Part shown: piece after piece, positions 230-40,806 of the stretch | How the letters are laid out: every line of letters begins with the position of its first letter | Position numbering within the stretch: position 1 is the stretch's first letter | IMG/VR virus record: IMGVR_UViG_3300027265_000006 | Coordinates: 1 to 40,806 of that record | DNA length: 40,806 nucleotides | Direction: 5' to 3' (one strand) | Origin: a virus | Lineage: Duplodnaviria > Caudoviricetes | Notes under the pieces: generated by a model | The model's input: only the letters and a program-made list of their open reading frames with translations | Databases searched by the model: none | Told to the model about the DNA's origin: nothing | Program-made: the position numbers and the translations under genes

Positions 230-787
230 TTAATATAATTTACCATTTGCAGTAAACTCATACTCATTCGCCTCTATCGTCTCAATAATCGCTTTTTCAC
301 TGGTGAGGTAATCACACTCCCTCTGAAGCATCATTGAGTAATCCTCAAGTAAGGACTTCAGGAACTCTAGGTCAATATCTTCAGTATCAATTTCATTGCA
401 ATAATCACAATACTCTGAATACCCTGATGAGCTACCAGGGACACAAAACATATCTGCATCATCCTGACATTGTCTTATCACTGACCTCTTGTACTCAATA
501 AGGTAGTCCTGTGCTGTCCTATAGGTATCACAGTGCTCACCGTGTTCAGCCAAGATAGCCTTCGCCACGTCAACGGCACTTTCAATAAACTCACCCTTAC
601 AATGCCTGTAACGGTCAAGATCAAAGCTTGTAATCTTCAATCCTATCCTTTCAGCATCCTCATAGGTGAAATCCCACCAATCATGATCAACGTTGATGTC
701 AAACAGGTTGTTTATAGCCTTCTCTTGTCCTTCAACGGACAGTTCAGCAAACTGGTAAATGTTGATTGTAACGGTCTCAGTTCTCAT
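230..787 (-). CDS. Acidic early hypothetical protein
   Basis: 185 aa, D/E rich, ends YLTSEKAIIETIEANEYEFTANGKLY; RBS GAGGAG. Confidence 0.8.
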   Translation of the reverse strand: MRTETVTINIYQFAELSVEGQEKAINNLFDINVDHDWWDFTYEDAERIGLKITSFDLDRYRHCKGEFIESAVDVAKAILAEHGEHCDTYRTAQDYLIEYKRSVIRQCQDDADMFCVPGSSSGYSEYCDYCNEIDTEDIDLEFLKSLLEDYSMMLQRECDYLTSEKAIIETIEANEYEFTANGKLY

Positions 788-793
788 TGGGTC

Positions 794-1075
794 TCACTCC
801 TCATTATCTTCAGTTGGTCCATAAGCGGACTCAAGTTCACATCCACAGTGACAGCAACACTCTTCACCCTCATAAAGGACTGTTGCACCCTCTGCTTTCC
901 ATCCGCTATGCCTGTCATGACTATTGGTTGCCTCAACGATCAGCCTGTAATTCTCACGGGCACACTTAGGACACATAAGGCCGTCAGCCATTACCATATA
1001 AACCGGATAGCCTCCTGGCCATGCGTAAGGGCTTCTTATTGCTTCCTTCACTTGTTCAAGTATTTGATTTCTCAT
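794..1075 (-). CDS. Early hypothetical protein with Cys motifs (possible Zn binding)
   Basis: YAWPGGYPVY motif, CPKC and CCCHCGC; RBS GAGG. Confidence 0.8.
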   Translation of the reverse strand: MRNQILEQVKEAIRSPYAWPGGYPVYMVMADGLMCPKCARENYRLIVEATNSHDRHSGWKAEGATVLYEGEECCCHCGCELESAYGPTEDNEE

Positions 1076-1265
1076 CGTCTCGCCTCAATATCCAAGGATG
1101 TCTCTTAATTCGTTCCAGGTTCTAGCCTCTTCATAATCTATTCCAATCTCACCTATATCGTTGATCCATACGACCTCTACTTCCAACCTGTCCTCTACAA
1201 TCACAGCGGATGTGCTGTGTTGTTCTGTATATCTCTTCATTTGTTCAAGTATTTGATTTCTCATC
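1052..1265. repeat. 25-bp direct repeat covering the first 8 codons of two adjacent early genes
   Basis: TTGTTCAAGTATTTGATTTCTCATC at 1052-1076 and 1241-1265; both proteins begin MRNQILEQ. Confidence 0.95.
1085..1264 (-). CDS. First early gene, 59-aa acidic protein
   Basis: Hand translation MRNQILEQMKRYTEQHSTSAVIVEDRLEVEVVWINDIGEIGIDYEEARTWNELRDILGY; RBS TAAGGT; below the ORF-track cutoff. Confidence 0.75.
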   Translation of the reverse strand: MRNQILEQMKRYTEQHSTSAVIVEDRLEVEVVWINDIGEIGIDYEEARTWNELRDILGY

Positions 1266-1278
1266 TCGATACCTTATT

Positions 1279-1336
1279 GGATTGTTTCGACCTTGCCTTG
1301 GTCTCGTCAGTACATTGCTTTTATGTATACACTCTC
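1279..1336 (-). ncRNA. Type III hammerhead ribozyme
   Basis: Minus strand GAGAGT-GTA-TACAT-AAAAGCA-ATGTA-CTGACGA-GACC-AAGGCAA-GGTC-GAAA-CAATCC: full CUGANGA and GAAA core, 5-bp stem I, 4-bp stem II, stem III with one G-A mismatch, GUA cleavage triplet. Confidence 0.85.
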
Positions 1337-1442: not shown

Positions 1443-1471
1443 AATGTACACGGTAGTGTGTTGTTTGTCAC
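1443..1471 (-). promoter_or_regulatory. Host sigma70-type early promoter
   Basis: GTGACA (1471-1466), 17-bp spacer, TACATT (1448-1443); T-tract upstream; points into the ribozyme leader and early genes. Confidence 0.7.
1448..1461. promoter_or_regulatory. Putative operator ACACG-N4-CGTGT (1 mismatch) in the early promoter spacer
   Basis: ACACGGTAGTGTGT; related copies at 5692, 37797 and 40268. Confidence 0.6.
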
Positions 1472-1479
1472 GAAAAAAG

Positions 1480-2190
1480 TGATGTCTTGTGTCGTTTAAT
1501 TGCTTTTCTTTTGTAACTATTTGATATTTCATTAGTTAGAATGAGGATTAAATGGTGACATCTGCCGACCATGTGTGCTGTGGTGTGCTGTGGTGTGCCT
1601 GGATTGAAAACAATAGATAAGAGAAAGATGAGAAAGAATTCCGACTGCAGTCATTATTGACCACGGTCGAAAAGTGCAGGCCTTAGGCCGTCCATAATAA
1701 GGTGATATAGCACAGCACAGGACATTAAGTCTTGTGTCGTAGCAATGATATCAATATCTTATGCTATATTGGTGACGTTATTGGTGTCAACTGGCCATCC
1801 TGGTCTACCTTGCTCAATCTCTTGTCCTCTTTCTCTTCATACCTTTAACTAATTGAAAACACTCAAGATCGACAAAGAAAGCTGTTCAAAGATCGAAGGA
1901 GGACCGACCCCACCGGGGGACACCACCCAGACGCATGCGTAAAGGCAGGGCTTCACATTTTTCTGCCAAATTTCAGCCTCCAAGGACCTCCATGACGCCC
2001 TCAGATATTCCACAGTCACCTATGGTTCACCATGTCCAGCCAAGGAGTGACACCCTGAAGAAGCCAAAGGAGAGTAAAGACTCCCTCAGGGTGTCAAGTT
2101 GAGCGCGTTTATCTATGGTATTGGAGTAGTCTCATCATGCATTAGCATCTGTACCATCAGTTACCTATTAGTTAACTATAAGTTTCCTCA
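1480..2190. other. Non-coding genome-end / terminal-repeat region
   Basis: No ORFs between terminase and early promoter; short repeats, hairpin at 2048-2096, phage promoter at 2194; same position as the T7 concatemer junction. Exact termini cannot be read from sequence. Confidence 0.6.
1514..1858. promoter_or_regulatory. Cluster of IHF-consensus sites
   Basis: WATCAANNNNTTR matches: TATCAAATAGTTA (minus, 1514-1526), TATCAATATCTTA (plus, 1749-1761), near match TTTCAATTAGTTA (minus, 1846-1858). Confidence 0.5.
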
Positions 2191-2193
2191 GTT

Positions 2194-2218
2194 CTCTCTT
2201 AAGAGAGGGCAGTAGTCA
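2194..2218 (-). promoter_or_regulatory. Phage RNAP promoter (phiOR-like, after terminase)
   Basis: CTACTGCCCTCTCTTAA|GAGAG aligns with T7 TAATACGACTCACTATA|GGGAG (CTC at -9..-7, C-5, T-4, A-1, G+1). Confidence 0.75.
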
Positions 2219-2250: not shown

Positions 2251-3960
2251 TTACCTAGCATACCTGGAGTAGAGCTTACTATTCCAATTATTTCCCATAG
2301 TTACCTCTTTAACTACCCCTCGATTGACCTGATGATTGATGAAATTCTCAAGGGCTTTATCGAGGGCTTCCTGCTTGTAGCTCTTTACCGACTCATTCTC
2401 GTCCCTGGACATGCTCTCAAGCCAGTAGGCAACTGCGATGGTGAGTGCATCGACTTTATCATCATGCTTCAATGCTCCTCGCTCTTTGCACATCCGGGTT
2501 ATCTGGTAGAACAATGAGTAGTTCCGGTCAACCAATGCTGCCTTCTCGTCTTTGCGGACCACCCTCTCATCAATGATCAGCCTGTGCTGGTTCATGATTG
2601 GCTCAAGGGTGTCGATTATGCGCTTCTCCTTTTGGATGTTGTGCTTCACATCGGTGAGCTTACATTGGTGATACTGGTTCAACACCGGCTGGAAGATCTT
2701 GGTGAACATACCGTCACCGAAGTTTGCCTCAATGATGATCTCGTTGACCTTGAACTGCTTGGCGATCTTCGCCAGCTTGATAAGTGTGAGGTCATCGTAT
2801 CCCCCGGCGAACCCATCACAGTCCATGACGAACAGGTTGCCGAACAATTGATTGACTATAGCGTAGCCAGTTTGATCTTTACCTGACCCTGAGGGATCTA
2901 TGGCCATCACTCGGCCCTCATATTCAACCCAGTTGTCCTTGTCGTAGAACATAGGGCCGAACCATCGGTCCCCGGTGAACCCGATCTGGAAGAGATCCTT
3001 CATGAGTTGCTCCTTGGCAGACCCATACTGGATGCTGAGAGGAGCCTTGTCGATGTTCAGGTTGGTGATGATGAGGTCTGAGGTCTTCAGTGGGTATCTG
3101 TCTTGATCTGATAGCGAAGTGTCCAGCATGAACTGGAGAGCGAAGTCAGACTTCCCGTAGGCGAGTTCCCTCTCAAGGAGGTCTTGATCAGTGAACCGGC
3201 GTGGATCAGTGGTCTTCCCGGTGAGAGCATCGGACATCTTCTCGGCAATGAAAGGAGCCAAGGCACCGTTGTAGACATCCTTGACCGGATATCGTGCTGG
3301 CCAGATCCGACAATGGTATCCACGGTCCCGAAGGGCATTGTAGATACTCTCCTCGGTTTGAGGTGTCCCAAGGTACGTAATGCGTCCGACCTCAGGCACG
3401 ATAATAGCCTCGAACTCCATACAGGTCTTCAAGAGCTTCTCTCGCATGTCCTGGGTGAGACTGTTGTTCGGAACCTCAACGTCATCCGCAATGATATGGG
3501 TTGCACGAGATCCAGCCAGTTGCCCAAAGACGCCTGCTGACTTCACCGATGGAGCATGAGCCGCCCTGGCTGGTGCTACGTCGAAGGCGAGTTTGGACTC
3601 CCTCTGGTCTGGCAGGGGAGCGAGGTGTTTGAGGATTGGCACCTCTTTGATGAGGCGTAGTGTGAATGTGGAGAAATCATCGGCTCTCTGCTTTGACGCA
3701 GAGACAACCAAGTACTTCGATTGTGGGTCTACAAGGAGACCCCAGCAGACATAGGCACTGGTGATCCATGATTTACCGATTCCACGGAATCCTTCAATGA
3801 CTTGTCTCTTTGGTCCATGTTGGAGGTACGAGGCGATGTCATATTGGACTGGAGTCGGTTCAGGTAGCTGGAGGTGCTTCCAGATGATAAAGAGAAAGTT
3901 CCGGAAGTCATTCAGGATGGCTGGATGCACAAGTGCCGAGCTTGAATAGCGTTTCGACAT
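2251..3960 (-). CDS. terL: Terminase large subunit (T7 gp19-like)
   Basis: Walker A FRGIGKS, Walker B IIADD, nuclease motifs IDPSG and HDDKVDAL. Confidence 0.97.
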   Translation of the reverse strand: MSKRYSSSALVHPAILNDFRNFLFIIWKHLQLPEPTPVQYDIASYLQHGPKRQVIEGFRGIGKSWITSAYVCWGLLVDPQSKYLVVSASKQRADDFSTFTLRLIKEVPILKHLAPLPDQRESKLAFDVAPARAAHAPSVKSAGVFGQLAGSRATHIIADDVEVPNNSLTQDMREKLLKTCMEFEAIIVPEVGRITYLGTPQTEESIYNALRDRGYHCRIWPARYPVKDVYNGALAPFIAEKMSDALTGKTTDPRRFTDQDLLERELAYGKSDFALQFMLDTSLSDQDRYPLKTSDLIITNLNIDKAPLSIQYGSAKEQLMKDLFQIGFTGDRWFGPMFYDKDNWVEYEGRVMAIDPSGSGKDQTGYAIVNQLFGNLFVMDCDGFAGGYDDLTLIKLAKIAKQFKVNEIIIEANFGDGMFTKIFQPVLNQYHQCKLTDVKHNIQKEKRIIDTLEPIMNQHRLIIDERVVRKDEKAALVDRNYSLFYQITRMCKERGALKHDDKVDALTIAVAYWLESMSRDENESVKSYKQEALDKALENFINHQVNRGVVKEVTMGNNWNSKLYSRYAR

Positions 3961-22566: not shown

Positions 22567-22590
22567 TCTCTTAAGAGAGGGCAGTAGTCA
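22567..22590 (-). promoter_or_regulatory. Phage RNAP late promoter
   Basis: TGACTACTGCCCTCTCTTAAGAGA, same as the copy at 2195-2218; upstream of all structural genes. Confidence 0.8.
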
Positions 22591-22700: not shown

Positions 22701-23192
22701 TCAATGAGATGCCTTAAGCCAACTCAGGCGCTGTCTTGAGATGTATTTCTGAACATATTGGTTATTTGATGCCAACTCAATCCCTGTATATGGACAGTAA
22801 TATGGAGGCTTATCTGCTTGATATTCCCCGTGTTTAACATAGTCCACATAGCGTAGTAACTGTTGCCTCTTTTCACCAAGGTCGCCATAGTGATACCGAG
22901 TGAATATCCATATCTGCTTCAGCGGAAAGCATGCGTTGAGAAGGCTGAGGAGTCTCCCCAGGTCTTCCACCGGCTGATCGAAAGGCTCTCCTCCCATTAT
23001 CCTGATCTTGTCAACCATGTTTATCGAGGTCTCCAAAGACTCCACGATGTCGTAAGAATCTTTGGAGTTGCCTTGATTGAACTCCCACAACTGTGGGTTA
23101 TGACAGCCAGGACAATGGGGAGCAGCACAGCCGTTCAGGAAGATATCGAATGACCTCTCCTGTAATGAGTATTGCGTTGCTCCGATCTCCAT
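22701..23192 (-). CDS. nrdG: Anaerobic RNR activating enzyme (radical SAM)
   Basis: GCAAPHCPGCHNP, MGGEP, ASNNQ; next to nrdD. Confidence 0.92.
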   Translation of the reverse strand: MEIGATQYSLQERSFDIFLNGCAAPHCPGCHNPQLWEFNQGNSKDSYDIVESLETSINMVDKIRIMGGEPFDQPVEDLGRLLSLLNACFPLKQIWIFTRYHYGDLGEKRQQLLRYVDYVKHGEYQADKPPYYCPYTGIELASNNQYVQKYISRQRLSWLKASH

Positions 23193-23315
23193 TTAGATCC
23201 ACCACCATCTTCCGCATTTGGAACACGACACGTAAGGCATTCGCCCATTCGAGCCGATCAGGTGGAGCTTGGTGTGGTGTCCTTTGTGGAACAGCTTGCA
23301 CCAGAGTCTCTTCAT
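23193..23315 (-). CDS. 40-aa Cys/His small protein
   Basis: MKRLWCKLFHKGHH...CSKCGRWWWI after RBS GGAGG; the longer track ORF overlaps nrdD. Confidence 0.65.
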   Translation of the reverse strand: MKRLWCKLFHKGHHTKLHLIGSNGRMPYVSCSKCGRWWWI

Positions 23316-23326
23316 GATTCCTCCAT

Positions 23327-25255
23327 TTAATAGAACTGACGGTGAGGGTAGTCTTCCTTCCTCCGCACCTTGTTCCAATTGTTGACGTTCGTGAGGAACC
23401 CCACCACCCTGGTGAAGTTCTCGATTATTGGTTTCCCACAGGCACACTTGTCCTTCCTGCCGACTGACATGTGTCCATCCTCGCATCTCTGGAGGTTGTA
23501 GTTGACCGCCCAGTAGACCACTCCGGATCTCGCACAGTGATCAATCAGTTCCTCGATCCTTTTTGGATCAGTGATCTGCTCCTCCAAGTTGATATGGCAG
23601 ATAGCACCGCCGCTGAACTTCCGGTCGAAGGCACCCTGGAGCCTGATCCGTTCCAGCATGTCAGCTTCGGCAATCAATGGGATGAACTGATTCGAATAAT
23701 ATGGATACCTTTGAGGAGGTTGTGGTTCGACCCAATCATCCCAAGTGTTGAACCCAAGCAGGTAGTCTTTACTTGCCAGCTTCACGGAGCTTGACTCAGC
23801 CGGAACCTGTTCGAGATTATGGGGAGAACCGAAGTGCTCCTGGGCGGTCTTACAGCACATTGCCAGGACATCAAGAATGCGACCGGCCAATGCTTCACCT
23901 TCAGTGCTGCGGATGTCATACCCAAGGTAGACCAGTGCCTCATAGAGTCCGGTCACGCCTATAGTGCTGTACTGCTTTGACAGGGCCATGTGACCATGTG
24001 TGTAAAGAGGCATGTTACCTTCATCAATCCGCTTCTTTAGGATCTTCCTTTTGACATCATTGATGACCGAGGCGTCCACAGCCAGATCACAAAGACCCTC
24101 CATGAACTCCTGAGTTGAACTGGCCTTCTCGGCAAGCCTTGGGAGATTCAAGGTGACAACTCCAAGTGACCCGATCTTGGTTGATCCAGCACCGAAGCTG
24201 TTGAAGTACTCCTGGTCCTGCTCAGATCTCAAACGGCAGCAAGAGGAAAGAGTAGATGTCGCACCACAGTAGATGTTGATAAAGCCCCACTTGATGTTCT
24301 TCTCGGCAATCAGCTTCTTGAAGGTATGATCCAAGATCTCCCCATCCTTCACAGCAAAGCATGCCGTGGTCACCGGGAAGGTCACCGGAGTTCTCTCAAG
24401 CTCCTCATTCATCACATCCAGGAAGATCTCCTGAATGGTCATAACAATACCCGGATCTGCTTCGACACCATCCAGCACATAGGCAGGACAGAGTTCACCA
24501 AGGAAGTTCCGGTCGTAAACTGAGACATTCGTGAAGGGACTCTGGTTCCCTCTCATTGGTTGGTTCAAGGTGTAGACCAGTGACGCCAATGTCTCCTTGA
24601 CGTACCTCCAGACTCCTTCTTCCCAGTCGTCATCCATCCCGATGGGGAACCCTGCATCGACCCCTTTGGCCAGGATCTTCCTGACGTACAGGGCCATACA
24701 GATGAAAAGGTCCGCAAGGCCAGTAGCCCCAAGGGTGCTATTGCTGGCAATGATGATGAACTGTTCGACCTGAGACTTGAATGAGTACAGGTGCTTAGGA
24801 GCCACAGACTTGATCTTCTTGATCATCGGCAACCCTTCCAGCACTATATCGTAACACGAATAGTTGAAGCAGTATGGGCGACCAAAGTCACTGAAGTCAT
24901 TGATGTAAATGTCTCCATTGATCTGCATCTCGATGATGGTGTCTGCATAGGCGGGAAGGAGAGGATACTCCTGTCGCAACTGCTTCCACAGAAGGTACAT
25001 CGAGTTCAATCTAAATAGAGGCTTTGGAAGTTCAAACTGGTAGCCTATAACATCCTTGGCATCCACGTTGGCATTGGCATCCACCGAGACATCTGCAGTT
25101 GCCGTTGGGTTATTCAAGAATGCCTTCGCGTTCCTGTTCAGATCCAGTTGCTTTTCTCCGATGCCCTCCAGTTCAAACATTGCTTCACCGTATGTCTCCT
25201 TCAGATTGAGGATAAGTCTGGTGAAGTCTTCTTCGTAACTGAGTCTTATGTTCAT
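23327..25255 (-). CDS. nrdD: Anaerobic (class III) ribonucleotide reductase
   Basis: Glycyl-radical RVVGFL, finger loop SSCCRL, GVVTLNLPRLA, EQVPAES, C-terminal metal-binding Cys; no evident ATP cone. Confidence 0.95.
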   Translation of the reverse strand: MNIRLSYEEDFTRLILNLKETYGEAMFELEGIGEKQLDLNRNAKAFLNNPTATADVSVDANANVDAKDVIGYQFELPKPLFRLNSMYLLWKQLRQEYPLLPAYADTIIEMQINGDIYINDFSDFGRPYCFNYSCYDIVLEGLPMIKKIKSVAPKHLYSFKSQVEQFIIIASNSTLGATGLADLFICMALYVRKILAKGVDAGFPIGMDDDWEEGVWRYVKETLASLVYTLNQPMRGNQSPFTNVSVYDRNFLGELCPAYVLDGVEADPGIVMTIQEIFLDVMNEELERTPVTFPVTTACFAVKDGEILDHTFKKLIAEKNIKWGFINIYCGATSTLSSCCRLRSEQDQEYFNSFGAGSTKIGSLGVVTLNLPRLAEKASSTQEFMEGLCDLAVDASVINDVKRKILKKRIDEGNMPLYTHGHMALSKQYSTIGVTGLYEALVYLGYDIRSTEGEALAGRILDVLAMCCKTAQEHFGSPHNLEQVPAESSSVKLASKDYLLGFNTWDDWVEPQPPQRYPYYSNQFIPLIAEADMLERIRLQGAFDRKFSGGAICHINLEEQITDPKRIEELIDHCARSGVVYWAVNYNLQRCEDGHMSVGRKDKCACGKPIIENFTRVVGFLTNVNNWNKVRRKEDYPHRQFY

Positions 25256-37813: not shown

Positions 37814-40249
37814 TTAAGCGAAAAAGTAAAGGGACTCCCGCACCTTATTGAGGTCCAGGGAACCCATCTTTGGCACCTCTGGTAGGCTCTCGTACACCTC
37901 AGGAGGCAGTTGCTCCCTGAGTTGCTCCTTGAATTCTGCCAGAATGTTACCTGAGTACATCTCAATGAATGTCTCTCTTAACGTCTTGTTCATCTTCTCC
38001 ATCTCCCCCGGACTACATCCAAATGAATCATGGATGAACGCGAAGTTGGTTATCCCGTTCTCCGCACATTTATTGACTGTGAGGACTAGATGAGACGCAT
38101 CCAGTGAGTGGATGAAGTTTGGTGCGATGCCTGCTTTGCTCTTCGATACTGACGGCATGTCAGTGTCCACCGATACATTCAGGCGCACCCTGGTTGACCC
38201 GTGGAAGGTATTGACCCTCTCGGTCTTCGGCTCGTAGTAGGTCTGATGAATCACCATGCCAGATGGAGCAACCCATTTCAGGATATGCCCTGCTTTTGCC
38301 GTGATATCGGCCACCTCTCGGAACCATTTCATTGCCTCTGCTGCCTTTACGACAACCTTGTTGATTGCGTCGAGGCTTACCTTGGCCATGTACATGGTGG
38401 CCTTGGCGTAGTTGGTATTATCAGTTATGAATACCTCTCCTTTTGACCTCCTTTTCTCAAGTTCATCACATAGTTGCTCAGAGAACCCATAGACGGTCGC
38501 GCTATAGGCGAAAGTCATAGTAGGTCTCTTGGCAATCCCTCTATCGATCCTACCGTTCCATATTGCGGCCAAGGGATTCTCGGTATCCTTAGCCACGATC
38601 TTGGATGCCTCTTCAGACACCTTCATGTAGACATCTGAAGGCTTCTCATGGGGTTCAAGGTTCACATAGTATCCACCAATCTCATCACGGAGCATGGCGC
38701 TATAATGTTGCAATCCTGAACAACTCCCATCCACATTGATGGGGAGGTGAGACACGAAGGAGTCCCCCTCTTTGGCATACCCGCGCCAGTTATGGCAGAA
38801 CGCCAGGAACATGAATGGTTCATCTGCTTGCATCCAGAACCGCTGCCCATCTAATGGATTCTCAGCACTGTCGGTGATTAAAGCGGTATTATCCTTCACC
38901 CACTGGACGCGATCAGCGAAGCTGATCTTGTCTTTGCCGAAGGTATTGGCTCCATGGATGGCCAGCCAATAGGCTCCTCGGTCACCGAGTGGTTTCCCGT
39001 TGGCGAACTCAAGGAGAGCCTTGCCGTTAGCGTCAGCTTGGCAGTTCAAGTACGGCTGGAGTGGATAGATCCTTCCTCGCCAATCAGTGTTGTAGCAGAA
39101 GAAGATCTCTTTCTCGTCCTTGAACCGATCAGCAGTCCACAATTGCCAGTAAAGTGTGGATCGTTTAGACTTGGTTCGATGCCATGCGTCATACTGAACC
39201 GCGCAATCAACCTTCCACTGTTTGATCCTCTCCGGATGGGTAATGCTGAGTTCATGGAACTCCTCCTCGGTTGTCCAAAACTTCTCAGGGATGGTCATCT
39301 TCACATCGTTTTCAGGAAGCCCAGCCAAAGCATGTTCCCTACATATTTGCATCACCTCCAACACATCCCTATTGATTCTATACGGCGTGTCTTGTAGGGC
39401 ATTTAAGGCGTTGTAAACGGTCATCATTGATTCAGCCTCTTTCAAAGCTCTGATTACCTCTTTATGTTTTGATCTGACCGCAGGTATCTTATATTGGCCA
39501 GCACAGCTCAAGAACCCACCAGAGTACATAGATTCCCAGTGAGCAGGTTTGACAAGCATCGGAAGAAACTGAACAGACAACTCAGCACATTGTTGGTGGG
39601 CATTCTCAAGCCACTGTGCAGCTAATGGTGACACTTGGAGATACCTCTGGGTCTTGGCTCCGGTGCCTTTCATTGTCAATTCAAAGACATCAACCGCCTC
39701 AACCAGCTTGTAGATGAGAAATGAGCCTAATTGTGTTGCGGCCGCAGAACCACCTTTCAAAGGGTAGATCGGAATCTCCTTCTTACCCATATGGTTGCGA
39801 AGGACGTTTATCTTATAAGACACACTCTTACTGTTCATAGTTTCCTCGATTGCCTTGACGTATCCAGGCATCTCCTTCTTGAAAACCATGTAGTCAAGAT
39901 GCATCCGGATGTTCTTAGCAACCCTATGGGCCATCACAACAAGGCTCGTAGGACGAATGATCTCAAGACAAGTCTTCATCACGATGAACGCTACAGCCTC
40001 AGGTCCGGCATCCACAATGGTCTTCCGAGTTGCAAGGTAGGCAGGCGGTCCCATCTTGTGGTTCATACAGTGTTCACGAATGGTGTCAGCCAGAGGGATC
40101 AAGCACTTTCTGAGTAGGTAATTTTCTGGTGAAAGTGTGGTCACATCTCCGCGCTCAATCACTCTCCGTTGACTCGATATGTAATTATTGATGCCGATGT
40201 TGACGGCGAGTTCTTCATTCTCAAACTGTCTTTCGATGAGTGTTTTCAT
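37814..40249 (-). CDS. Single-subunit phage RNA polymerase (gp1-like)
   Basis: DWRGRIY, DGSCSGLQH, R..AKRPTMT.AY, PNFIHSLDASHL, IHDSF, YFFA end. Confidence 0.98.
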   Translation of the reverse strand: MKTLIERQFENEELAVNIGINNYISSQRRVIERGDVTTLSPENYLLRKCLIPLADTIREHCMNHKMGPPAYLATRKTIVDAGPEAVAFIVMKTCLEIIRPTSLVVMAHRVAKNIRMHLDYMVFKKEMPGYVKAIEETMNSKSVSYKINVLRNHMGKKEIPIYPLKGGSAAATQLGSFLIYKLVEAVDVFELTMKGTGAKTQRYLQVSPLAAQWLENAHQQCAELSVQFLPMLVKPAHWESMYSGGFLSCAGQYKIPAVRSKHKEVIRALKEAESMMTVYNALNALQDTPYRINRDVLEVMQICREHALAGLPENDVKMTIPEKFWTTEEEFHELSITHPERIKQWKVDCAVQYDAWHRTKSKRSTLYWQLWTADRFKDEKEIFFCYNTDWRGRIYPLQPYLNCQADANGKALLEFANGKPLGDRGAYWLAIHGANTFGKDKISFADRVQWVKDNTALITDSAENPLDGQRFWMQADEPFMFLAFCHNWRGYAKEGDSFVSHLPINVDGSCSGLQHYSAMLRDEIGGYYVNLEPHEKPSDVYMKVSEEASKIVAKDTENPLAAIWNGRIDRGIAKRPTMTFAYSATVYGFSEQLCDELEKRRSKGEVFITDNTNYAKATMYMAKVSLDAINKVVVKAAEAMKWFREVADITAKAGHILKWVAPSGMVIHQTYYEPKTERVNTFHGSTRVRLNVSVDTDMPSVSKSKAGIAPNFIHSLDASHLVLTVNKCAENGITNFAFIHDSFGCSPGEMEKMNKTLRETFIEMYSGNILAEFKEQLREQLPPEVYESLPEVPKMGSLDLNKVRESLYFFA

Positions 40250-40335: not shown

Positions 40336-40476
40336 CGCTTGGTTTCTCTTAAGAGAGGGCATGTAATGACACCAACTGGATGGAAAGTGTCGATGCAGGC
40401 GTCACCAAATAAGCGGACGCTTGGTTTCTCTTAAGAGAGGGCATGTAATGACACCAACTGGATGGAAAGTGTCGAT
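40336..40476. repeat. 59-bp direct repeat (82-bp period), each copy carrying a phage promoter variant
   Basis: CGCTTGGTTTCTCTTAAGAGAGGGCATGTAATGACACCAACTGGATGGAAAGTGTCGAT at 40336-40394 and 40418-40476. Confidence 0.95.
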
Positions 40477-40585: not shown

Positions 40586-40614
40586 CTCTCTCTTAAGAGG
40601 GGGCAGTAGTCACT
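40586..40614 (-). promoter_or_regulatory. Phage RNAP promoter variant
   Basis: AGTGACTACTGCCCCCTCTTAAGAGAGAG, one change from the 2194 copy in the core. Confidence 0.7.
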
Positions 40615-40749: not shown

Positions 40750-40806
40750 TGGTGCGAGAGGGGGGAATCGAACCCCCACGCCTAAGCGCTAGATCCTAAG
40801 TCTAGT
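40750..40806 (-). tRNA. 3' 57 nt of tRNA-Leu(TAG), probable att core
   Basis: Anticodon stem CTAGA/TCTAG with loop CT-TAG-GA, long variable arm, GGGGG-TTCGATT-CCCCC T arm, CCA end; 5' part lies outside the window. Confidence 0.93.

What the first reader, a model, noticed from the sequence alone, without database searches (positions are those of the whole stretch)
1279..1336. Hammerhead ribozyme in the early leader of a T7-like prophage
Seen: all conserved hammerhead core nucleotides in type III topology on the transcribed strand, between the early sigma70 promoter and the first early gene; predicted cut after GUA, between 1328 and 1327. Known: T7 processes its early transcript with host RNase III, and hammerheads leave 5'-OH and 2',3'-cyclic phosphate ends. 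Inference: this phage self-processes its early mRNA, giving a hairpin-protected 5'-OH message without host enzymes.
Basis: partly seen in the sequence, partly recalled or inferred. Interest (0 to 1): 0.85.

Follow-up and report, generated by a model that had tools for sequence, protein, structure and literature searches.

The report
Self-cutting RNA before phage early genes
A hammerhead ribozyme motif with a perfect catalytic core but weak outer stems sits just before the first early gene of a T7-like prophage, where it likely trims the front off the early message; such ribozymes are already known in phages, and several cultured T7-like phages carry one in the same kind of slot.

Summary
Confirmed: a type III hammerhead on the minus strand (1334-1280), full core, predicted cut 1328/1327, 63 nt before the first early AUG. 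A model built from 12 other phage hammerheads scores it 43 bits (E 2e-9; next hit 15). Rfam misses it but also misses canonical phage hammerheads. Its periphery is weak: stem I 5 bp, no U in loop I, stem III 3 bp then a mismatch, each unlike 23-24 of 24 peers, so cleavage is likely slow and decay cannot be excluded. No orthologue was found, so covariation of this copy is untested; no cleavage data exist. The slot is common: 10 of 33 T7-like contigs with enough upstream DNA, and cultured S2B, HTVC019P, HTVC021P and LKA1, carry hammerheads among early genes. Perreault 2011 already described prophage hammerheads flanking ardA and one 13 nt before a halovirus early gene. 'Without host enzymes' is doubtful: downstream gaps hold long RNase III-like hairpins. 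Earlier notes of this scan saw hammerheads in such slots on other DNA. Verdict: new member of a known kind; modest interest, mainly because cultured T7-like models make the function testable.

The parts
1280..1334 (-). Type III hammerhead ribozyme motif (whole)
   Evidence: descriptor hit; CM R1 45.8 bits, independent CM R2 43.2 bits
1329..1334 (-). Stem III 5' strand; 3 pairs, G1332/A1282 mismatch, 2 pairs
   Evidence: sequence; pairing pattern
1327..1328 (-). Predicted cleavage site after GUA (H17 = A1328); 63 nt upstream of the AUG
   Evidence: hammerhead consensus; cleavage not tested
1311..1327 (-). Stem-loop I, 5 bp, 7-nt loop without U; would become the 5' hairpin of the cut message
1304..1310 (-). 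Core strand C3-A9 (CUGANGA)
   Evidence: sequence
1289..1303 (-). Stem-loop II, 4 bp, 7-nt loop ending in A
1280..1288 (-). Core GAAA (G12-A15.1) and stem III 3' strand
   Evidence: sequence; same 3' strand start as in L244, HTVC019P, HTVC021P hammerheads
1271..1275 (-). Shine-Dalgarno-like site of the first early ORF
   Evidence: sequence; A15.1-to-AUG 21 nt vs 19-36 in 18 of the 19 peers with a called start
1085..1264 (-). First early ORF, 59 aa, no family match
794..1075 (-). Second early ORF, 93 aa, phrog_18452; shares its first 31 nt with the first ORF
230..787 (-). Third early ORF, 185 aa (phrog_5162, unknown function)
1443..1471 (-). Candidate sigma70 promoter (9/12); unverified
   Evidence: chance-level count
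1761..1790 (-). Alternative candidate sigma70 promoter (10/12); unverified
2251..3960 (-). Terminase large subunit, last late gene; marks the right end/left end junction upstream of the early leader
40753..40806 (-). 3' part of a tRNA gene, likely attachment site, next to the RNA polymerase gene (37814-40249)

Best explanation
A type III hammerhead ribozyme sits in the 5' leader of the early operon of a temperate T7-like phage and likely cuts the nascent early transcript between 1328 and 1327, probably slowly, which would leave a message that starts with a 5'-OH and stem-loop I, 63 nt before the first start codon. Shown: the motif, its strand, its spacing to the ribosome site, and the same arrangement in other T7-like phages. 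Inferred: host RNA polymerase starts upstream; the three-way junction folds once stem III closes; cleavage removes the promoter-dependent leader; the 5'-OH plus hairpin slows 5'-end-dependent decay and standardises the 5' end (a natural counterpart of the RiboJ insulator). Because loop I lacks the U of the usual loop I-loop II contact and stems I and III are short, this copy is predicted to behave more like a minimal hammerhead: active at high Mg2+, partial in the cell. It likely complements rather than replaces host processing, since later gaps of the operon hold RNase III-like hairpins.
For: Perfect core and three stems; R2 43.2 bits, inside the 24.8-63.3 range of the canonical hammerheads targeted; family structure strongly covaries (11 of 14 pairs with two-sided change). 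Cut-to-AUG 63 nt vs 60-81 in 18 of the 19 peers with a called start, out of 24. In 80 contigs chosen by RNA polymerase similarity alone: 36 descriptor hits upstream of the polymerase on the sense strand, 0 antisense, and 5 weak hits in nearly twice as much downstream DNA; 11 of 33 contigs with at least 3 kb upstream have one, 10 after dropping L178 (weak hits only). Where a type III is present it is the first hammerhead of the operon in 5 of 5 such contigs. Cultured examples: Caulobacter S2B (type III before the first annotated gene after the terminal repeat, type I later), HTVC021P, HTVC019P (type III), HTVC022P (type I), LKA1. Literature: prophage hammerheads flanking ardA cleave in vitro and in E. 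coli; the HF1/HF2 hammerhead lies 13 nt before an early gene and the mapped 5' end is within 3 nt of its cut (PMC3088659). Most loop mutations did not reduce co-transcriptional activity of a type III hammerhead (PMC9901934). RiboJ raises mRNA about twofold in E. coli (PMC6206723).
Against: Among 24 distinct phage type III peers, 23 have stem I of 6 bp or more (window 5), 24 have a U in loop I (window none), 23 have 4 or more contiguous pairs in stem III (window 3); weakest stem I and weakest total fold of those compared. No loop I/loop II complementarity beyond 2 nt is visible, unlike LKA1. Loss of loop contacts costs orders of magnitude at physiological Mg2+ (PMC6155905; PMC3088659). Predicted share of active fold with the full leader is only 0.07-0.11 for 3' ends 1270-1230, although peers score lower by the same measure (median 0.0075), so this test does not discriminate. 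No orthologue: the nearest phages by terminase (44-63% identity) have none in the DNA held (whole records of 5 of them, 4 fragmentary). The promoter is unverified.
Confidence: 0.55

Rival explanations
1. Decaying relic: the element descends from an active hammerhead of this family but has lost loop I uridines and a stem III pair in this prophage, and cleaves too slowly to matter within the life of the mRNA.
For: Three peripheral departures from 23-24 of 24 peers; the 3' strand of stem III begins like that of L244, HTVC019P and HTVC021P, whose 5' strands have U where the window has G1332; single copy in the operon where several relatives carry 3-7; nearest relatives lack it.
Against: Core, stem II and five stem I pairs are all intact and spacing to the AUG is kept; some natural hammerheads lack recognisable loop contacts (PMC3088659). 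With so few changes, an intact core is expected under either reading, and only intact cores are detected.
Confidence: 0.28
2. Destabiliser or switch: cleavage is deliberately slow or conditional (Mg2+, temperature, a phage or host protein) and the cut lowers early-gene, regulator and integrase expression, as glmS cleavage leads to decay, helping to set lysis versus lysogeny.
For: The operon ends in a MarR-like regulator and integrase; the protecting hairpin is marginal; glmS cleavage is followed by degradation (PMC6765202); Perreault et al. suggest slow phage variants may be regulated.
Against: No ligand-binding or alternative structure was found in the leader (z +0.85 and +1.53); lytic-type LKA1 has the same arrangement; peers have strong 5' hairpins (median 0.955 formed), which fits stabilisation better.
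Confidence: 0.13
3. Chance match with no ribozyme ancestry.
For: No Rfam hit; fold energy not better than shuffles; loose descriptor hits 23 of 150 shuffles.
Against: Rfam at gathering also found no hammerhead in 15 and 9 loci that hold many canonical ones; R2 E 1.9e-9; 3 of 1200 shuffles at equal stem lengths; correct strand, intergenic, and at the family spacing from the AUG.
Confidence: 0.04

Closest known systems
Bacterial, prophage and phage hammerheads of Perreault et al. 2011 (PMC3088659; passages, sections 6 and 7, supplement search)
   Same: Intergenic hammerheads near integrase and ardA genes in prophages, proposed to process long phage transcripts; some shown active in vitro and in E. 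coli.
   Different: Single copy with a weak periphery, in a T7-like (single-subunit RNA polymerase) phage; the podoviruses seen in the readable part of their dataset were PaP3 and LUZ24 (type I list; file cut).
HHphage of haloviruses HF1/HF2 (PMC3088659)
   Same: Hammerhead just before the first ORF of an early polycistronic transcript; mapped 5' end within 3 nt of the cut.
   Different: Archaeal virus, structural variant, 13 nt from the start codon; here a bacterial T7-like prophage with canonical core.
Type III hammerheads of sTRSV and viroids; the RiboJ insulator (PMC6155905, PMC6206723; passages)
   Same: Same topology and core; RiboJ places such a ribozyme between promoter and ribosome site, leaving a 5' hairpin and raising mRNA.
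   Different: Natural; lacks the U needed for the U:A:U loop contact; much weaker 5' hairpin.
RNase III sites of the phage T7 early transcript (recalled)
   Same: Processing of the early message upstream of an antirestriction gene (T7 0.3; ArdA here).
   Different: RNA-catalysed, 5'-OH end rather than 5'-phosphate (recalled chemistry; PMC6155905 legend); T7 has no hammerhead in its first 8 kb.
Temperate T7-like phages S2B, HTVC019P/021P/022P, LUZ100
   Same: Gene order small early genes, MarR-like regulator, integrase, RNA polymerase; four of these five carry early-region hammerheads by my scans.
   Different: Their hammerheads have full-length stem I and a U in loop I; LUZ100 has none in the first 7 kb.

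Membership tests
Hammerhead ribozyme, type III | Core C3 U4 G5 A6 N7 G8 A9, G12 A13 A14 A15, U16 H17 | tested here: met
Hammerhead ribozyme, type III | Three helices with core-adjacent pairs intact; stems I and II closed by loops, stem III open | tested here: met
   5, 4 and 3(+2) bp
Hammerhead ribozyme, type III | Score against a profile of natural phage type III hammerheads | tested here: met
   43.2 bits with R2; peers 24.8-63.3
Hammerhead ribozyme, type III | Rfam hammerhead model hit | tested here: inconclusive
   none, but none either in 24 loci of which most hold canonical hammerheads
Full-length (tertiary-stabilised) hammerhead | Loop I-loop II contact (U:A reverse Hoogsteen / U:A:U triple or pseudoknot) | tested here: not met
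   loop II ends in A but loop I has no U (24 of 24 peers have one); no pseudoknot seen by eye; an unrecognised contact cannot be excluded
Hammerhead ribozyme, type III | Covariation among orthologues of this element | tested here: inconclusive
   no orthologue found; family-level covariation strong
Hammerhead ribozyme, type III | Mg2+-dependent site-specific self-cleavage giving 5'-OH and 2',3'-cyclic phosphate | not testable with these tools
   needs in vitro transcription or end mapping
Temperate T7-like (Autographiviridae-type) phage | Single-subunit RNA polymerase, T7-type replication and virion genes in T7 order | tested here: met
Temperate T7-like (Autographiviridae-type) phage | MarR-like regulator and integrase before the polymerase, attachment site in a tRNA | tested here: met
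   L173 phrog_9665, partial integrase phrog_1 E 1e-4; tRNA 3' part at the window end; host flanks not seen
   intergenic hairpins of about 29 and 26 pairs in L173; cleavage by RNase III itself untested

The most novel reading that the evidence does not exclude
Many T7-like phages process their early transcript with ribozymes under a positional rule: a type III hammerhead at the head of the operon acts as a natural RiboJ (removes the promoter leader, leaves a 5'-OH hairpin before the first ribosome site), with type I/II hammerheads or RNase III hairpins between later genes. This prophage is a hybrid with a slow leader ribozyme, and cultured Caulobacter phage S2B, LKA1 and the HTVC019P-type pelagiphages allow the long-open question of what phage hammerheads do to be tested genetically.
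Probability: 0.4. Interest if true: 0.6.

Novelty: new member of a known kind. Interest (0 to 1): 0.36.

Why it matters
Hammerheads near phage genes are known, but their purpose is still called hypothetical (PMC6765202 section 13). This copy is a poor model (uncultured, no orthologue, weak periphery). Its value is that it led to cultured T7-like phages with clean hammerheads at the head of the early operon, where a single core mutation could show whether self-cleavage changes early mRNA stability, antirestriction timing or lysogeny. Searches for hammerhead with Autographiviridae, with T7-like phage gave no paper, and with pelagiphage one unrelated essay; the library lacks most subscription papers and the stored Perreault alignment file is cut, so absence from print is not established.

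Tried and rejected
Rfam at gathering and at E<=10: no hammerhead; rejected as evidence after controls. Orthologue searches: strict pattern in viral contigs 0; metagenome pattern 3 hits = the longer copy of this phage (L173), one unrelated type III hammerhead (L174), one non-hammerhead (L175); blastn of the leader against GenBank phages 0, of the motif only short chance-level hits; single-protein locus searches with ORF2 and the polymerase found none. Hammerheads are not tied to the ORF2 family: 3 of 89 loci. Model R1 was partly circular (many members picked by a window-derived seed), so R2 was built and used. Thermodynamic share of active fold does not separate this copy from peers. A conserved leader RNA upstream of the ribozyme, seen in L211/L220/L244, is not shared by the window; the window leader folds no better than shuffles. 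No second hammerhead in the window or in L173. Sequencing runs: no RNA holder listed; two DNA runs, possibly the source, carry the stretch unchanged as contigs; neither bears on expression. My T7 control windows for RNase III hairpins were placed by guess and did not calibrate the test. A bare-core pattern over 5 polymerase relatives gave 4 matches in 2 records, not followed up beyond the weak L178 hit already seen.

Full report
The observation. On the minus strand the window reads a complete hammerhead core in type III order: GUA at 1330-1328, stem-loop I (1327-1311, 5 bp), CUGACGA (1310-1304), stem-loop II (1303-1289, 4 bp), GAAA (1288-1285) and an open stem III of 3 pairs, a G/A mismatch and 2 more pairs. 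The cut is predicted at 1328/1327, 63 nt before the AUG at 1264. The bare core pattern is at chance level in the window (5 vs 5.2), but my three-stem descriptor finds only this site; shuffled windows give a hit in 23 of 150 (loose) and 0 of 150 (strict), and 15 or 3 of 1200 at 4/4/3 and 5/4/3 pairs (thresholds post hoc). Rfam finds nothing, but it also found no hammerhead in 15 and 9 loci most of which hold canonical ones. A covariance model from 12 phage type III hammerheads not picked by the window-derived seed (alignment, model; 11 of 14 pairs covary) scores the element 43.2 bits, E 1.9e-9, next hit 15.4; the canonical hammerheads targeted outside the model score 24.8-63.3.

The context. 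The window is a T7-like phage on the minus strand: tRNA 3' part at the end, RNA polymerase, SSB, endonuclease I, primase-helicase, DNA polymerase, virion genes, terminase, then about 1 kb without long ORFs and a run of small genes. L173, a longer identical copy, continues the run through ArdA (PF07275), a MarR-like regulator (phrog_9665) and the start of an integrase (phrog_1, E 1e-4). That is the order of HTVC019P/021P/022P, LUZ100 and S2B, permuted as expected of an integrated copy; host flanks were not seen. So the motif is in the early leader. The promoter is not established: two consensus sites (1471-1443, 1790-1761) at chance-level counts.

How it compares with peers. A seed from stem II found 71 loci among viral contigs, 69 with full hammerheads, often clustered. 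Among 24 distinct type III peers from the fetched loci (about half reached through that seed), 23 have stem I of at least 6 bp, 24 have a U in loop I and 23 have at least 4 contiguous stem III pairs; the window has 5 bp, no U and 3 pairs. GUA occurs in 5 of 24. Its stem I is the weakest (-0.7 vs median -5.4 kcal/mol), predicted 77% formed in the product. Spacing is typical: 63 nt from cut to AUG vs 60-81 in 18 of the 19 peers with a called start (5 of 24 had none, one lay at 114). The loop I-loop II contact is what gives fast cleavage at cellular Mg2+ (PMC6155905 passages; PMC3088659 section 7), though in one co-transcriptional screen most loop mutations were tolerated (PMC9901934 passages). 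Hence: likely active in a tube, uncertain in the cell.

Relatives. No orthologue exists in what I could search, and the 12 nearest terminase loci have none in the DNA held (0 of 5 whole records, 4 of them fragments). The slot, however, is common. In the best 80 of 597 contigs retrieved by RNA polymerase similarity (scan stopped at 7 of 64 parts; not dereplicated; L230 is the contig of L016), the descriptor gave 36 sense hits upstream of the polymerase, 0 antisense, and 5 weak hits downstream in 525 kb vs 279 kb upstream; 11 of 33 contigs with at least 3 kb upstream have one, 10 after dropping L178. In the 5 of these with a type III, it is the first hammerhead of the series; others have only types I or II. 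Of 8 cultured T7-like phages whose early regions I scanned, 5 have one: S2B, HTVC019P, HTVC021P, HTVC022P, LKA1; none in T7, LUZ100, jiawei. In HTVC019P, HTVC021P and LKA1 the type III precedes the third, second and second annotated ORF, not the first.

Mechanism. Most likely the ribozyme cuts the nascent early RNA, discards the leader and leaves a 5'-OH message beginning with stem-loop I, as RiboJ does in engineered circuits, where mRNA rises about twofold (PMC6206723 passages). That 5'-OH ends resist RNase E is recalled, not tested, and the host is unknown. Confidence 0.55; decayed relic 0.28; destabilising or conditional switch 0.13; chance 0.04. The claim 'without host enzymes' is weakened by long hairpins in later gaps of the operon (L173 1118-1192 and 1803-1872, about 29 and 26 pairs, z -5.7 and -4.9; a shorter one at 2040-2096, z -3.4). 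The first two were picked as best-folding windows, so their z-scores are inflated, and RNase III cleavage is inferred from shape and position only.

What is known. Perreault et al. 2011 (PMC3088659; passages, sections 6-7, supplement search) reported hundreds of bacterial hammerheads near integrases, clusters in prophages, a set flanking ardA active in vitro and in E. coli, and a halovirus hammerhead 13 nt before an early gene with a matching in-vivo 5' end. A 2019 review (PMC6765202, passages and section 13) calls the purpose undefined. I found no paper linking hammerheads to Autographiviridae, T7-like phages or pelagiphages (a HTVC022P transcriptome paper, PMC12753301, has 0 occurrences of either word), but coverage is partial and the Perreault alignment file is cut. 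Earlier notes of this scan describe hammerheads in early-gene slots of other phages.

Verdict. Real motif, correct call, known kind. New member; interest 0.36. The bolder reading, a positional ribozyme code for early transcripts of T7-like phages that can be tested in cultured S2B or LKA1, has probability about 0.4 and would deserve about 0.6.

Noticed in passing
window 2195-2211, 22567-22583, 40345-40361, 40427-40443, 40589-40605 (minus strand): A 17-nt motif containing a 12-bp palindrome occurs 5 times (chance 0.12): after the terminase, before the virion module and three times before the RNA polymerase gene. Likely phage polymerase promoter or repressor operator.
   Followed up: partly
L173 1118-1192, 1803-1872, 2040-2096 (minus strand; beyond window position 1): Three intergenic hairpins in the early operon, two long and RNase III-like.
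   Followed up: partly
L173 1-776, 2092-2589: Longer copy of the same phage adds ArdA, a MarR-like regulator and an integrase start; integration would separate the early operon from the RNA polymerase gene.
   Followed up: partly
window 1046-1076 and 1235-1265: First and second early ORFs start with a near-identical 31-nt stretch, suggesting gene insertion or swapping by recombination at gene starts.
   Followed up: no
L263 8984-9041 and 7068-7134 (Caulobacter phage S2B); L258 464-521; L259 972-1028 and 2948-3008; L260 2297-2359; L176 1496-1560: Hammerheads, not annotated in these records, in early regions of cultured T7-like phages; the LKA1 one has an extra base after A9 and complementary loops I and II.
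   Followed up: partly
L244 5380-5500, L220 2100-2230, L211 5640-5770: A conserved leader upstream of the type III hammerhead in pelagiphage-like contigs, also in HTVC021P/022P/019P; no Rfam match at gathering. Not shared by the window.
   Followed up: partly
L032 (1-5906): A viral contig with six hammerheads and four pistol ribozymes within 5 kb.
   Followed up: no
window 22701-25255: Anaerobic ribonucleotide reductase pair (NrdD, NrdG) in a T7-like genome, pointing to an anaerobic host.
   Followed up: no
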